Of a DNA stretch of 64,000 nt, positions 18,801-24,800 are shown in pieces (position 1 is the first letter of the stretch; every line of letters starts with the position of its first letter). Location: assembly GCA_964252035.1 (NCBI GenBank), contig OZ176205.1. The stretch is one strand, 5' to 3'. A program made the position numbers. Source of the stretch: Podarcis erhardii (taxonomy: Eukaryota).

Positions 18801-21800
18801 TGAATTTTCCTGATAAATGACATTTTCTTCCCTTGTTCAGCTCTCATAGCACTGACAAACTCAACTCTCAACTCAGACTTCTCTGTCTTTCATACCTCTT
18901 ATCAACATACCTGTAAACTTGGCTAATTCTGCCTCACCACTTTCATTCCTACAGCCCGCAAATGTTCTTTACTTCCAGCAACACAACAAATGTCATTTTA
19001 CAAGCTAGTAATTTGTGTGCATGGACTTTAATGTACAAAATCTTGAGCCCCAGGCTCAAAGTCAGCCTTCTCTGCCACAGTCAGTCACCCTCCTGCTAAT
19101 ACCAGTTCTGATCCCCATCCTTCCATCTCCAAGGACATGCTTTTATGTACAGTGTCAGCATGTGGTGACAGAAAGTTTACATCACATGCTTCATTAAGTG
19201 CAGAAAAGCAGGAAATGCAAAAATGGGGTCAAAATTGGCTTCTCAAGAAGCAGCTCTGTGTTCCTGAGGAAAACAAGATGGCTTCCTTAAGGCAGTCCTC
19301 ACCACAGAAATGGGATGTATCTAAAAATCCATCTGAGCCCAAGAGGAACACCACCTTAAGGCTTGGTGGAATAAAACTGGTGGATATGAGGTTAACTGGG
19401 AGACAGATTCAAAATGAGGATAGAGGTCTCATTGTGGACAAGCAGTTAAACTTTCCAATCACATATATGACACTACAAAAGTTTGTGTTGTGTCCTCTGC
19501 TATCTGTTGAGAGACCTTGAACGTCTAGGGAGTGGAACATTCACTTCCCTTCCCCTGCTGAAAACCGAGCCATCATATTTCTTCCTTCTGATGCATGTAA
19601 GTTTGCCCCCTGGCTCTTCTTAAAAGCTTGCTTAGTGCTAAGTATGCTTATGGCTAACAGTTGGGTGTTGCACACATTGAAGTTTAAATGTTTTATGGGG
19701 ATTCCCTTGTTTGATGCTTCTGTGAGCGATTCTGAGAGTGGAGAACTGGCTGGTGTGTACTGCTCAAACCCAAGGCTTTATGGTTGCCGACTCCTCCATG
19801 ATATGAATAGTGATGGGCTGTGTGCTTGGTGTTAGGTGCTTCTTGGCTTGGCTCATCATGATGGTACCTGGGGTCTTCCAGGTGCTTCTCTTTCTGTCCA
19901 GATGCCTCAGTTGTCGTCATGTTAGTACTTGCTGTCTTATTCACCTGTGAAGGTAATGAAAGATTCTATATATGTACATGCAGATGGGCTTAGGGTGAAG
20001 ACAGAAACACATTTTTAAAAGTGAAGATGGATGTATATATCTGAAGTGATCTGCATTCAGCCCTTTTTGACAAAATATGTAAACTTCCAAAATAAACTGA
20101 GCTCAGAGCAACTGCTACTTTCTGTTTTCAGGAGAAATTGGCTGTGAAGAATGGTGATTGCCTGGCAGTCACTTAAAAAGTGGTTTTAAAGAATGTGTAA
20201 AATAGAAGTTTAAATGAGTAAACATGCTGGATGTTTAGGCGTAGAAATGGTTTTTAAAAGCCCAAAGTTTGAGAGGCAAAAAGCTGCACAGGAGTTTAAG
20301 TCAAATATATATATCTCTCAAAAGAGCGGGGAGGAAAGAAGGTTTGATTTCTCCAGATCAGAAAAACCTGCACCCGCTCCTGGAAGGAGATCTGTTTGAC
20401 TTCACTCTCGGTATGGTCGAAATGGCTTAAAAGGTATTTATAATATTTTGCTGCATTGGCTATCAGGACAGCAAAAAACTAAAATAGGTAATACATCAGC
20501 CCCCCCCCCCCCCCCGCAATCCCACCTTGAGGAATGAACTTTCAGGTCACTGATGGGGCAGGAAGTGACACCACAGGAGAAGACAGCAGTTACTATTTCT
20601 TCTGTCCAAGGAACAATATGCTCCCATTCATTGAGAACAGGAAGCACTTCAACCTGACAAATTAAGGCTGTTAATTTCTTTTTTTTCAATAACTGAGGGC
20701 AGACTATGGCTACTGGGTGAGGCTCAAGCAGTACATGATGGCAGAAGATCCAGGTCTTGACCCACCATGTACAAAACAGGAAGGTGGGGTTGACTTTAGA
20801 GATAAGGGGTGCCTGGGTGAGAGGAACCAAACCTTTCCTGCACTTGATGCCACACAGCTTCTGTTCCAAAGTGTTTTTCTTTCTGTTCCAAAGTGTTTTT
20901 CTTCTTGGGGTTGGACTCGATGGCCCTTGTGGTCTCTTCCAACTCTATGATTCTATGATTCTTCAAGTCAATCTCACTTTTAGTATCTGAACTCAACTAG
21001 GGAGAAAAGCACTTGGGGGAGGGCAAGCACTTGGGGGAGTGTGAGAAGCTGAAAGTGGGGGGGGGGAGTTTAGCATTTCCTCCCACCTGGGTTCTCCTGG
21101 ACCCCTCCACGCTACACTATCTGTGACTGTGGCAGACCTGGTGTCTCCATCTGCAATTTGCTTCTGAGGTTTTTATTTCAAGATGGTTTACTTCCTGTCA
21201 AGATGAAAGATGCTTTGTGGTATCTCAACATCCTTGCTTGTTGTAGCGGCCCAATATAATAAAACCCTCCCTTCCACCTTCTCCTCCCACATCCCTGCTG
21301 TAAGACCAATCTGATCAGAAACCTAGAATTCCCAGGCAGAAATTCAGGATGGGCAAATGAGGAAACGTCTGGCTTAAACAAAACGAGTTGAAAAGGAAGT
21401 TGATGAGGGGATTCAAGTCCCTACCTCCTGGCTGCTGTTAGAGGGGTACCAGGAACAATTGCCGCAGTAGTCTTTGCTGTGTGTGTACCGCACGGCTGCT
21501 TCAACATAGGGCAAGTGCAGAAAACTGTATGGCAGCTGGATGTGGAAAGCCAGCCTGCTGCACCTGCAAAGCCCGAGAGCCATGAAACAAATGGACATAA
21601 AGTTAGTGTCAGGAGAGCATGTAATCCACTAATTTACACTGGAAATGAATCTAACCTGGCCTGAAGAATCTGGTTTTCCTCACCAACAGTTGTGAGGCAT
21701 GATGGTAAAGAGAAACACTTACATCATGGTATGTCCTTTCTTTCCAGATGTGTCCTCAAACAGACTTTTTGATAATGTATTCAGGAATCCCGAATTCCAT

Positions 21801-24800
21801 ATATCTTACTTTCCTTCCTTCTGCCCAGGCCTGCAGACCCCCATTGGCCTCCCATCAGCAGCTGCCTATGGAGCACCCACTTCTGTCCCCACTAGTGCTG
21901 CTGATGGGATCCCTACTGGTGGCAGCAGGGGCTTTCAGTAGCCAAGGAAGGAGCTGGACTGAGCCGCCTTGCAGTCCATTGGATCCTGAGATGGTCCCAC
22001 TGCCAGAACTGGGCTTCTTCCAGGCTCAATTGCTGCACCAGCTCCAAGCTGGCTCAGTGATCTGCCTTCCCTCCCTTCTGCCCCGGCTGCTATGCACAGC
22101 AGTGGCCCTGACTCTCCAAAAACCCTAATCAGTCTTGGGTGGGTGGGGAGTTAGAATTGCTCCCTTAAGCACTGACCTGTCATAGATCAGGAAGTCATCC
22201 TTGTCCCCATCTAGAATTTGCCAGACGTCAGGCTCCAGAATCTGCTGCTGGTAAACAGGAACTCCCTCTGGGGCATGCCGTTTGAGCTCCCAGTACATAG
22301 CCCTGGAGAAAGGAGTCTTCTCATTCACAATCATGAAGCTGACATTGGTCACTCCTTCAAGTGACAGCTTCCTCTGCAAGCTGCCAAGGCTGGTGGGTAG
22401 GAAGAACAAGCAACGTTTAGGAATTGCGGTGCACAGATATAGGTTCCAGCCCTTGCCCTCTACACATACCATGTGGGATATGAGCCTGCACTGCTGGACG
22501 GAGGCCCCTTCATTTATCAGTTCACTGGACTTGCCATTACAGCGGTCCCTGCTACATAGATCCAGCAATAAGTTAAATGATACATATTATGCTTGAGCTG
22601 TAATTCACCAGGAAAATTGGATCTACCTTCTATATGTGTGTTATATCTGGCCTGCTGCAGCCCAGGCCTCAATTTTTGATTGCTGAACTGGAGCTTATAG
22701 ACAATCAGTTCAGTTCTGTGTTTCCTGATAGAAAGCCTAGGGGCAAAGATGTGACCTTAAGAGTTGTGATATTGCCACTGAACACCAAATACAGGGTTCC
22801 AACACATATCTGACTTTCTAGTCACATCCAGACCATCTTTTTAAAGCATGCGACTTTCCCCAAAGCATTATGGGAACTGTGATTTACCCCCTGGCAGAGC
22901 TACAGTTCCCAGCACTCTTAAACGACAGTTCCCATGACTCTTTGGGGAAAGCCATGTGCGTCAAATGTATGGTGTGGCTGCGACCTAACAGCTCCTGACT
23001 CAGGCAATCTTCTCTATGAACTCACCTGGCAGCCTGCTTGAGACAGAACTGTCAGCTGGCTTTCAACAGTGCCACCACTGTCACTTGGCCCTCCATCCCA
23101 GCCATGGGGGCCACCCCATTGATCTTCCAGAGTGGTGCAGGCTGGCATATTCGGGTCCTGTTCTCAGCCACATCTGCCAGCGTAGCAGCAATTGCCAGGA
23201 GCAGCAGCAAGGTTGTTGTGGCTAGGGCTGAATAGCCCATCCTGGCCACCTCCCTTCAGCCTAAAGTAGAAGAGAGCAGCTTAAGACCATAAGAACTTCC
23301 CTCAGCGGGGGGGCTTTAAGGGGAAAAAATAATGAATATGATATGTTTTGATAATTTGTTATGTTGAAATTGTTAATAAAAACTTTTTTAAAAAAAGAAC
23401 TTCCCTCAGCAGGCCAGATGCAGCCTCTAAGTCTCAGTAGACTTTCTTCTTAGTAAACATAGATAGGATTCAGTTACAGATAGGTAGCCGTGTTGGTCTG
23501 CCATAGTCAAAACAAAACAAATTCCTTCCAGTATCACCTTAAAGACCAACTAAGTCAGTTCTTGGTATGAGCTTTCGTGTGCATGCACACTTCTTCAGAT
23601 ACACAGGATTAGATAGGATTGTCCTACATGGATGCCCTAGTGCCCTGTATTTGAAAGTGACAGTAATGGATGCTTAAAGACACACTCACATATTAGCTGC
23701 CCAGGATTTCAGCTACAGCAAGGGTTGTTGCTATCCTCTGGCCCTCTGGGTATTGTTGCAGTACAACTCCCAGCATGGTCATTAAGAACATATGAAGAGA
23801 CCTGCTGGATCAGACCAAAGGCCATCTAGTCCAGCATCCTGTTCTCACAGTGGCCATCCAGATGCCTAGTGCCACAGCACTCCCTCTATTTGTGATTCCT
23901 ATTGACTGGTAGGCAGAAGTGTCTCAGACAGTGGAGGTATCCATCATATCTAGTGGTTATGAATAGCCCTGTCCTCCAGGAATTTGTCTAATCCTCCTGT
24001 CTTGCCAAAGGCAAGGTGGTTCTTTTAAAATGAGATTCAGAAGCAATACAAAATACACAAGTGAGCGAGAAGTTTAAATATTTTATTCTAAAACAGCACG
24101 CAAGGTATACATATACCAAGCAAGCACTTCAACCTGCCACTTGGAAGCCTTCAAGAAGTGGCGAAGCGACTCCCCCAAGTACCCTCAGTTTGCACGGCCC
24201 TGTGGCCGATCAGTCTGTGCATGAACTTCAAAGAAACTCTGCCCAAACCGTCCGATATTATAGACAGCCTGTGTGGCTTCCAAGACTGGCTACATGCAGA
24301 TCACCCATTAGCCACCCCCTCCCAAGGCCTCACTTTCTCAAAACAATGTCCAGCAATGTCCAAGGTACCCAGAATTATCCTCCACAACTGATGAAGGCAG
24401 CTGTGTGTGGGGCTTCACCTCCTCCCAAAGTTCTCAGGACATTAAAGACTGTTCTCACAGTGTCAAAAAACTTAACAAGAGCAAGGGAGGGGAGAGCAAC
24501 AGAGGCAGGAAGGGTAACCGTGTCAGATCACTAACTCCTCAATACATTTTGTTTTCCAGATGCATTTCCTATACACCTCCAAAATAGTGGCTATCTCCAC
24601 ATCCTGTGAGAGCAAGTACTTATATAGTACTTCTTTTTGTCTGCCCTGAATTTCCCAATATTCAGCTTCATTGGAAGGCCTAATATTCTGGAAGACAGAG
24701 AACAGCTTCTCTCCATCCACGTTCTCCATGCCATGCAAAATTGTAGACATCACTATCATGTCCCTACCTTATAGACCTTTTTTCTAATCTGGAAATCCCT

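What the first reader, a model, noticed from the sequence alone, without database searches (positions are those of the whole stretch)
19693..23240. Selenoprotein Pb: in-frame UGA that the ORF track treats as a stop
Seen: signal peptide, then KAS-UGA-QFC (U63xxC66), three further exons in correct phase, several N-glycosylation sequons (NRT, NVS, NCS, NSS, NKT) and a His-rich tail ending in TAA with no Sec-rich C-domain. Known: this is the SELENOP2/SelPb architecture of fish, amphibians and birds, absent from placental mammals. Automated pipelines often truncate such genes or call them pseudogenes.
Basis: partly seen in the sequence, partly recalled or inferred. Interest (0 to 1): 0.65.

Follow-up and report, generated by a model that had tools for sequence, protein, structure and literature searches.

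The report
Lizard selenoprotein Pb gene, one selenocysteine
This is the ordinary wall-lizard copy of selenoprotein Pb, a known secreted redox protein whose single in-frame UGA most likely codes for selenocysteine; the only notable point is that public protein models of it dodge that codon.

Summary
On the minus strand, 23240..19693, four GT-AG exons give an 816-nt (272-codon) reading frame. It contains one in-frame TGA (codon 63, 23054..23052) in a UxxC motif and ends at TAA.

- **Family:** exons 1-3 match Pfam SelP_N at consecutive profile positions. Exon 4 is a His-containing tail with no SelP_C match.
- **SECIS:** a hairpin with AUGA / AAA / GA lies 483 nt after the stop, at 19210..19138. 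It scores below Rfam's threshold.
- **Orthology:** in a tree of named records the gene falls in the selenoprotein Pb clade (100/100). Podarcis muralis' own selenoprotein P falls in the other clade.
- **Synteny:** the neighbours look like peroxiredoxin, HPDL, MUTYH and TOE1. A paper places the SelPb locus in a block syntenic with human chromosome 1.
- **Source and annotation:** the DNA is lizard, most likely Podarcis muralis. That species' UniRef model is 100% identical over exon 2 but splices out the Sec segment and lacks exon 4.

The gene family is already known, so interest is low. Sec insertion and secretion are inferred, not shown.

The parts
23026..23240 (-). Coding part of the first coding exon: ATG at 23240, 71 full codons plus AG of a split codon. 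A likely 3' splice site (ctactttag|G) lies at 23261/23260, so a non-coding exon should lie upstream; it was not located.
   Evidence: Pfam SelP_N E 3.1e-13, profile 2-46
23175..23240 (-). Probable signal peptide, residues 1-22, with cleavage guessed after TLA. Inferred from hydropathy only.
   Evidence: hydropathy; no signal-peptide predictor available
23052..23054 (-). In-frame TGA, codon 63, read as selenocysteine within U63-Q-F-C66
   Evidence: conserved coding sequence on both sides in relatives
22177..22389 (-). Coding exon 2 (213 nt; phase-2 introns on both sides)
   Evidence: SelP_N E 1.7e-24, profile 47-116; 100% identical to the Podarcis muralis UniRef record P0005
21425..21563 (-). 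Coding exon 3 (139 nt), the Cys-containing CGNCS region
   Evidence: SelP_N E 1.3e-14, profile 118-161
19693..19944 (-). Coding part of the last exon: an 83-residue tail with 11 His, then TAA at 19695..19693. No Sec-rich domain.
   Evidence: the same C-terminus, within a few residues, in 4 other squamate records
19138..19210 (-). Candidate SECIS element, 483 nt after the stop. AUGA 19194..19191, apical AAA 19178..19176, 3' GA 19156..19155, helix 2 with 8 contiguous pairs, helix 1 of 11 pairs.
   Evidence: SECIS_1 16.5 bits, below the 35-bit threshold; fold; own pattern scan
19027..19032 (-). First poly(A)-signal-like hexamer (ATTAAA) after the SECIS; a further AATAAA lies at 18736..18731. The real 3' end is unknown.

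Best explanation
This is the lizard orthologue of selenoprotein Pb (SelPb, SELENOP2). The source is most likely Podarcis muralis.

The gene is a 272-codon, four-coding-exon gene on the minus strand. Its product would be a secreted, N-glycosylated protein. The N-terminal domain has a thioredoxin-like fold with a U-x-x-C redox centre at the start of the first helix. A short His-containing tail follows, and there is no Sec-rich selenium-transport domain.

The UGA at codon 63 is recoded to selenocysteine with the help of one SECIS hairpin in the 3' UTR. By analogy with selenoprotein P's N-terminal domain, the protein would act as an extracellular thiol/selenol oxidoreductase or peroxidase rather than as a selenium carrier.

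Shown here: gene structure, family membership, clade, neighbourhood and a SECIS-like hairpin in the expected place. Inferred only: Sec insertion, secretion, glycosylation and enzymatic activity.
For: **Gene model**
- One in-frame TGA, canonical splice sites and an 816-nt frame.
- Pfam SelP_N matches the three exons at contiguous profile positions.
- A family profile run over all window ORFs finds only these exons plus one degenerate fragment.

**Relatives and coding past the UGA**
- Exon 2 is 100% identical to the P. muralis UniRef record and 81-90% identical to other sauropsid records. 17 of 51 hits are named Pb, Pb-like or P2.
- Residues just after the TGA (QFCLKQAAS) recur in cobra and softshell-turtle records, and residues just before it recur in Varanus, Salvator and Anolis records. 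So both sides are conserved coding sequence.

**Orthology**
- The tree of 32 rows (15 named Pb, 14 named SelP/Pa, 3 for this gene) gives Pb plus this gene at 100/100, SelP/Pa at 100/100, and this gene inside a squamate Pb group at 96/94.
- P. muralis has a separate record named Selenoprotein P, which falls in the other clade.

**No Sec-rich domain**
- The C-terminus ends within a few residues of the same place in the 4 other squamate records aligned.
- Exon 4 has no SelP_C match at E <= 1.

**SECIS**
- The hairpin has AUGA, 12 nt, then AAA, and a 3' GA.

**Synteny**
- Neighbours by Pfam and by eye are 1-Cys-Prx C-terminal domain/peroxiredoxin, a single-exon glyoxalase-fold ORF (HPDL-like), HhH-GPD plus EndIII 4Fe-4S (MUTYH-like) and CAF1 (TOE1-like).
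- PMC6301783 (passages) says the SelPb locus has conserved synteny and that SelPb is missing at that locus on human chromosome 1.

**Fold, on a stand-in**
- The AlphaFold model of a shark Pb-like record has pLDDT above 90 over most of the N-terminal domain (block means 93-98 for residues 31-140). CxxC sits between strand 48-54 and helix 59-77.
- The best PDB matches are TlpA/ResA/DsbE-type thioredoxin-like proteins and peroxiredoxins.
Against: - **Weak SECIS score.** No SECIS reached Rfam's gathering score anywhere in the window, nor E <= 10 in a 4.3-kb search. SECIS_1 appeared only when 161 nt were searched, at 16.5 bits against a threshold of 35, E = 0.91.
- **My pattern scan was post hoc.** I relaxed it after a first version missed the hairpin. 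The relaxed pattern gives 2 hits in the window against a mean of 0.81 in 100 shuffles, and 55 of 100 shuffles had at least one. Only its place and strand make it telling.
- **Modest fold stability.** The fold z-score is -1.87, and 6 of 200 shuffles fold as well.
- **No orthologue shows U.** No protein record seen shows U at the site. The 5 of 53 records that keep the motif have nothing, W, C, C or R there. The tools may turn U into C, so Sec in orthologues could not be verified here.
- **No functional data.** No transcript, ribosome or protein data were available.
- **Indirect fold evidence.** The thioredoxin-like fold comes from a shark stand-in, not from this gene.
Confidence: 0.93

Rival explanations
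1. A recently dead gene: the TGA is an ordinary nonsense codon, or the SECIS no longer works. Only a 62-residue peptide, or nothing, is made.
For: The SECIS candidate scores far below Rfam's threshold. A decayed partial copy of the gene's last two coding exons lies 5 kb away, so the locus has produced pseudogene material.
Against: The TGA sits exactly at the family's Sec position in UxxC. The 209 codons after it contain no stop or frameshift, all six internal splice sites are canonical, and they score strongly against SelP_N. Exons 2-3 are identical to the congener P. lilfordi record where they overlap, while the tail differs at 5 of 83 residues. That pattern looks like constraint, not decay.
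Confidence: 0.04
2. It is selenoprotein P proper (SELENOP/SelPa), and its Sec-rich C-terminal part was missed.
For: It shares the N-terminal family (SelP_N), the UxxC motif and the exon layout with SelP (PMC6301783 passages).
Against: - The last exon ends at TAA, with no further in-frame TGA and no SelP_C match.
- Only one SECIS-like hairpin was found.
- The tree puts it in the Pb clade at 100/100, apart from P. muralis' own record named Selenoprotein P.
- The neighbourhood is the chromosome-1-type block, not the SelPa one.
- A family profile finds no other SelP gene in the window.
Confidence: 0.01
3. The gene is expressed, but the UGA mostly terminates. Sec insertion is inefficient, and the locus mainly yields a transcript subject to nonsense-mediated decay, tuned by selenium supply.
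For: The UGA lies in the first coding exon, upstream of three exon junctions. From established knowledge of selenoprotein mRNAs, that position makes such an mRNA open to nonsense-mediated decay when Sec insertion fails. The SECIS score is weak.
Against: The same layout holds for every SelP and SelPb gene described (PMC6301783 passages). Conservation of the downstream exons argues that they are translated. This is a matter of degree rather than a different identity.
Confidence: 0.02

Closest known systems
Selenoprotein Pb (SelPb, SELENOP2, sepp1b) of fish, birds, reptiles, monotremes and marsupials
   Same: - SelP_N domain, a single UGA in UxxC in the first coding exon, four coding exons, a His-containing tail, no Sec-rich domain and one SECIS-like element.
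- Placement in the Pb clade.
- A locus of the human chromosome-1 type.

   Different: Nothing of substance. The tail is short and only moderately His-rich (11 of 83), and it diverges fast, at 44-49% identity to gecko and agamid records. The SECIS scores low with Rfam's model.
Selenoprotein P (SELENOP, SelPa, SEPP1)
   Same: N-terminal thioredoxin-like domain with UxxC, signal peptide, exon layout and a His-rich stretch.
   Different: SelP has a C-terminal Sec-rich domain (Pfam SelP_C) with many UGAs, and as a rule two SECIS elements (passages). Here there is none of the former and one of the latter. The gene also lies in a separate clade and at a different locus.
TlpA/ResA/DsbE-type thioredoxin-like oxidoreductases and peroxiredoxins
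   Same: The predicted fold of a SelPb orthologue matches these, with TM-score 0.54-0.77 normalised to the target for the matches cited. The CxxC/UxxC motif sits at the N-end of helix 1. PMC2397514 aligns SelP with TlpA.
   Different: Only 9-19% sequence identity. SelPb is a secreted eukaryotic glycoprotein with Sec in place of the first Cys. Activity was not tested, and the fold was obtained on a shark stand-in, not on this gene.

Membership tests
Selenoprotein Pb (SELENOP2) | N-terminal SelP domain (Pfam PF04592) | tested here: met
   Exons 1-3 give E 3.1e-13, 1.7e-24 and 1.3e-14, at contiguous profile positions 2-161 of 234
Selenoprotein Pb (SELENOP2) | Exactly one in-frame UGA, in a UxxC motif in the first coding exon | tested here: met
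   TGA is codon 63 in KAS-U-QFC; there is no other in-frame TGA
Selenoprotein Pb (SELENOP2) | No Sec-rich C-terminal domain; a His-containing tail instead | tested here: met
   No SelP_C match at E <= 1. TAA follows 83 tail residues, 11 of them His. The 4 other squamate records aligned end at the same place within a few residues
Selenoprotein Pb (SELENOP2) | [quoted passage not shown] | tested here: inconclusive
   Four coding exons with GT-AG sites were found. An acceptor-like site lies 20 nt before the ATG, but the non-coding exon was not located and no transcript data were available
Selenoprotein Pb (SELENOP2) | One SECIS element in the 3' UTR | tested here: inconclusive
   One hairpin with AUGA/AAA/GA lies at 19210..19138. 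Rfam SECIS_1 gives only 16.5 bits against a 35-bit threshold, and nothing at gathering score. SECISearch3 was not available
Selenoprotein Pb (SELENOP2) | Groups with SelPb, not SelP/SelPa, in a tree | tested here: met
   32 rows, 208 columns. The Pb clade with this gene has support 100/100, and the SelP/Pa clade 100/100
Selenoprotein Pb (SELENOP2) | Lies in the conserved SelPb locus (human chromosome-1-type block) | tested here: met
   Peroxiredoxin-, HPDL-, MUTYH- and TOE1-like neighbours. The synteny statement is from PMC6301783. That paper's gene names are in a figure I could not see, so the match of individual genes rests on my own knowledge of human 1p34
Selenoprotein Pb (SELENOP2) | Sec is really inserted and the protein is secreted | not testable with these tools
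   Needs 75Se labelling, mass spectrometry or ribosome profiling
Selenoprotein P (SELENOP/SelPa) | Sec-rich C-terminal domain (Pfam PF04593) with multiple UGAs | tested here: not met
Selenoprotein P (SELENOP/SelPa) | Groups with SelP/SelPa in a tree | tested here: not met
   the P. muralis record named Selenoprotein P (P0267) is in the other clade
Thioredoxin-like fold superfamily | Beta-alpha-beta core with the redox motif at the N-end of helix 1 | tested here: inconclusive
   Met for a shark SelPb-like stand-in. Not run on this gene, because the spliced protein was not assembled

The most novel reading that the evidence does not exclude
The last 8 nt of coding exon 1 and the start of coding exon 2 hold a perfect 7-nt reverse complement (23033..23027 against 22386..22380). 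In the spliced mRNA this could form a hairpin about 18 nt after the UGA. It could be a selenocysteine redefinition element that exists only after splicing and makes up for a weak SECIS. No such junction-spanning element has come to my notice for SelPb; I ran no literature search on this point.
Probability: 0.12. Interest if true: 0.35.

Novelty: already known. Interest (0 to 1): 0.12.

Why it matters
Scientifically it matters little. SelPb is an established vertebrate selenoprotein and this is its expected lizard orthologue.

Its practical value is for annotation:
- The public protein models of this gene in Podarcis and in most other sauropsids seen here skip, delete or start after the Sec codon. 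By a crude motif test, 48 of 53 records lack an intact motif.
- Selenoproteome counts and redox-gene comparisons in reptiles that rely on such models will therefore be wrong for this gene.
- The locus also gives a clean squamate example of the SelPb synteny block that lost the gene in placental mammals.

Tried and rejected
- **Rfam, whole window, gathering score:** 0 matches. Rfam at E <= 10 on 15500..19800 gave 5 weak matches, none a SECIS.
- **First SECIS pattern scan:** no hit at all, because it allowed only one unpaired position in helix 2. The relaxed version is post hoc.
- **Second pattern hit, 49409..49365 (-):** it lies antisense to a CAF1/TOE1-like exon and is taken as chance.
- **PDB sequence search with exon 2:** 0 matches at E <= 1.
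- **Search for a second SelP gene or SelPa in the window:** tblastn with the four exon peptides and a family profile over all ORFs of 12 residues or more. Both found only a decayed exon-3 fragment at about 14.5 kb. blastn found one 53-bp match at the exon-4 boundary.
- **The listing of cluster members for names of unnamed representatives:** the database was switched off, so that query could not be made.
- **Pfam on 10 long representatives:** SelP_N only, no SelP_C, so it did not label them.
- **P0058:** an 1105-residue repeat protein that ranked second with 11 weak stretches. By eye it is not a SelP relative, and it was ignored.
- **Pfam on the first two peroxiredoxin-like ORFs and on the 382-residue ORF at 61261..62406:** no family. 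Their identities (PRDX1-like, TESK2-like) rest on my reading only.
- **Not done:**
  - assembling the spliced mRNA or protein;
  - any search or fold with it;
  - a search for shorter (truncated) protein records.
- **Supplementary files:** not seen. Figure S17 of PMC3316567 (the SelPb alignment) and the synteny figure of PMC6301783 may list lizards and neighbour genes.
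Full report
**What is there**

The feature lies on the minus strand. Reading 23400..19400 as reverse complement shows the following:
- An ATG at 23240 in a good context (A at -3, G at +4), with an in-frame stop upstream.
- A hydrophobic N-terminus.
- The stretch KAS-TGA-QFC, with the TGA as codon 63 at 23054..23052.

Four coding exons follow one another with canonical GT-AG sites: 23240..23026, 22389..22177, 21563..21425 and 19944..19696, then TAA at 19695..19693. Their lengths add up to 816 nt, or 272 codons. The only in-frame stops are TGA-63 and the terminal TAA.

The tail has 11 His in 83 residues.

An acceptor-like site 20 nt before the ATG suggests an upstream non-coding exon, as described for SelP genes (PMC6301783, passages). 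I did not locate it. The window has no N.

Every statement about the whole protein is therefore a sum over exons, or rests on database records that their depositors had joined.

**Family**

Pfam SelP_N matches exons 1, 2 and 3 with E = 3.1e-13, 1.7e-24 and 1.3e-14, at profile positions 2-46, 47-116 and 118-161 of 234. This independently supports the splice model. Exon 4 matches neither SelP_N nor SelP_C. A profile built from 30 family members and run over every ORF of the window finds these exons and only one other weak fragment.

**Relatives**

Exon 2 finds 51 proteins with E <= 1e-3 among 69 candidates.
- The best hit is a UniRef record of Podarcis muralis, 100% identical.
- Others are sauropsid records at 76-94% identity and fish or shark records at 61-69%.
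- 17 of the 51 are named selenoprotein Pb, Pb-like or P2. None is named plain selenoprotein P, Pa or SEPP1.

So the window is lizard DNA, most likely P. muralis, and not human. An exhaustive profile-free search of cluster representatives gave 129 hits at E <= 1e-3, 65 at E <= 1e-10 and none at E <= 1e-30.

**How public models treat the UGA**

I read 19 sequences.

| Treatment of the Sec codon | Count | Examples |
|---|---|---|
| Keep the N-terminus but splice around the Sec codon | 9 | P. muralis record, which drops 13 residues and also lacks exon 4 |
| Begin downstream or with unrelated sequence | 5 | P. lilfordi record, which starts at a Met in exon 2 |
| Simply omit the residue | 1 | Pelodiscus |
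| Show another letter at the site | 4 | W in one, C in two, R in one |

A crude motif test over all 53 records P0005-P0057 finds the motif region in 5 and not in 48. No record shows U. The tools may render U as C, so Sec in orthologues could not be verified.

What the records do show is conserved coding sequence on both sides of the TGA. QFCLKQAAS appears after it in the cobra record and QFCLKQA in the softshell-turtle record. VTVVALLKA appears before it in the Varanus record, with close variants in the Salvator and Anolis records.

The P. lilfordi record confirms the exon 3-exon 4 junction and ends at the same residue as my model, with 5 differences in 83 tail residues. Gecko and agamid records end within a few residues of the same place.

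**Pb or P?**

My third homologue search, started from a lizard SelP-type record, returned named SelP, SEPP1 and Pa records, including one named Selenoprotein P for P. muralis itself.

A maximum-likelihood tree was built from 32 rows: 15 named Pb, 14 named SelP/Pa, the window's exon 2 and the two Podarcis records of this gene. It used 208 columns. All unnamed records and the remaining named ones were left out by hand. The tree splits into a SelP/Pa clade (100/100) and a Pb clade containing this gene (100/100). Within the Pb clade, this gene sits in a squamate group (96/94).

**Neighbourhood**

ORFs around the gene read as follows.

| Neighbour | Strand and position | Basis |
|---|---|---|
| Peroxiredoxin | + strand, 7.3-12.2 kb | Pfam 1-cysPrx_C for the last exon; the rest by eye |
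| Single-exon glyoxalase-fold ORF of the HPDL type | + strand, 30769..32091 | Pfam and by eye |
| MUTYH-like gene | - strand | Pfam HhH-GPD, EndIII 4Fe-4S |
| TOE1-like gene | + strand | Pfam CAF1 |

From my own knowledge, these genes lie together on human 1p34. PMC6301783 (passages) states that the SelPb locus is syntenic across vertebrates and that SelPb is missing from that locus on human chromosome 1. Its gene names are in a figure that I could not see.

**SECIS**

Rfam found nothing at gathering score in the window, and no SECIS at E <= 10 in 4.3 kb. By eye, a hairpin 483 nt after the stop has the hallmarks of a SECIS:
- helix 1 of 11 pairs;
- AUGA at 19194..19191;
- helix 2 with 8 contiguous pairs;
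- AAA at 19178..19176 in the apical loop;
- GA at 19156..19155 (z = -1.87).

Searched alone, this stretch matches SECIS_1 end to end, but at 16.5 bits against a threshold of 35. My first pattern scan missed it. A relaxed scan finds it plus one other site in the window, against 0.81 expected from shuffles. The pattern alone is therefore not significant window-wide. Its strand and its position in the 3' UTR are what count: roughly 0.006 expected per kb of one strand, by my arithmetic. I regard the SECIS as probable, not proven.

**Mechanism**

Passages of PMC2397514 describe SelP's N-terminal domain as thioredoxin-like, with the UxxC as a likely redox centre, and SelPb as the short form that keeps the His-rich region but lacks the Sec-rich region.

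As a stand-in I folded a shark Pb-like record with a 30-row alignment.
- Block-mean pLDDT is 93-98 for residues 31-140 of the N-terminal domain.
- The CxxC sits between strand 48-54 and helix 59-77.
- The best PDB matches are TlpA/ResA/DsbE-type thioredoxin-like proteins and peroxiredoxins.

So the lizard protein most likely works as a secreted selenol/thiol oxidoreductase. That is an inference.

**Novelty**

In the passages I read, SelPb has been described since the zebrafish work, is counted in the ancestral vertebrate selenoproteome, and is stated to be lost before placental mammals (PMC3316567, PMC2397514, PMC6301783). PMC6301783 says both genes occur in all jawed vertebrate classes. A search for SELENOP2 / selenoprotein Pb / lizard brought up nothing specific to lizards. 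Database names show that reptile orthologues are recognised.

The finding is therefore a correct reading of a known gene. Its value is as an annotation fix.

Noticed in passing
window 14230..14605, minus strand: A decayed copy of SelPb coding exons 3 and 4 lies about 5 kb downstream of the gene. The exon-3 copy has in-frame stops and a 4-nt insertion. The exon-4 copy keeps the acceptor and the first codons and then diverges with indels. No copies of exons 1-2 were found. It looks like a remnant of a partial tandem duplication.
   Followed up: yes
window 23033..23027 and 22386..22380, minus strand: A perfect 7-nt reverse complement spans the junction of coding exons 1 and 2. After splicing it could form a hairpin about 18 nt downstream of the UGA. 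It was not folded, because the joined sequence was not made.
   Followed up: no
window 7334..12186 (+), 30769..32091 (+), about 37.7-46 kb (-), 49.3-55.1 kb (+), 61261..62406 (-): The neighbouring genes read as peroxiredoxin-1-like, HPDL-like (a single 441-codon ORF), MUTYH-like, TOE1-like and possibly TESK2-like. This is the block that lies on human 1p34. Some identities are supported by Pfam and some only by eye.
   Followed up: partly
window 33002..33381: A GC-rich 60-bp tandem repeat, 6.3 copies, 86% matches, downstream of the HPDL-like ORF. It makes long spurious ORFs in all frames.
   Followed up: partly
window 49365..49409, minus strand: A second match to my relaxed SECIS pattern. It lies antisense to a CAF1/TOE1-like coding exon and is taken as a chance match.
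   Followed up: partly
window 20906..20962 and 6462..6519; 23795..23855 and 53929..53990: Short interspersed repeats are shared between intron 3 or the upstream flank of the gene and other parts of the window (about 80% identity over about 60 bp).
   Followed up: no
protein records P0056 (caecilian) and P0041 (swordfish), found: At the Sec position the caecilian Pb-like record shows R and the swordfish record shows W. These are either real substitutions or artefacts of how those pipelines read TGA.
   Followed up: no
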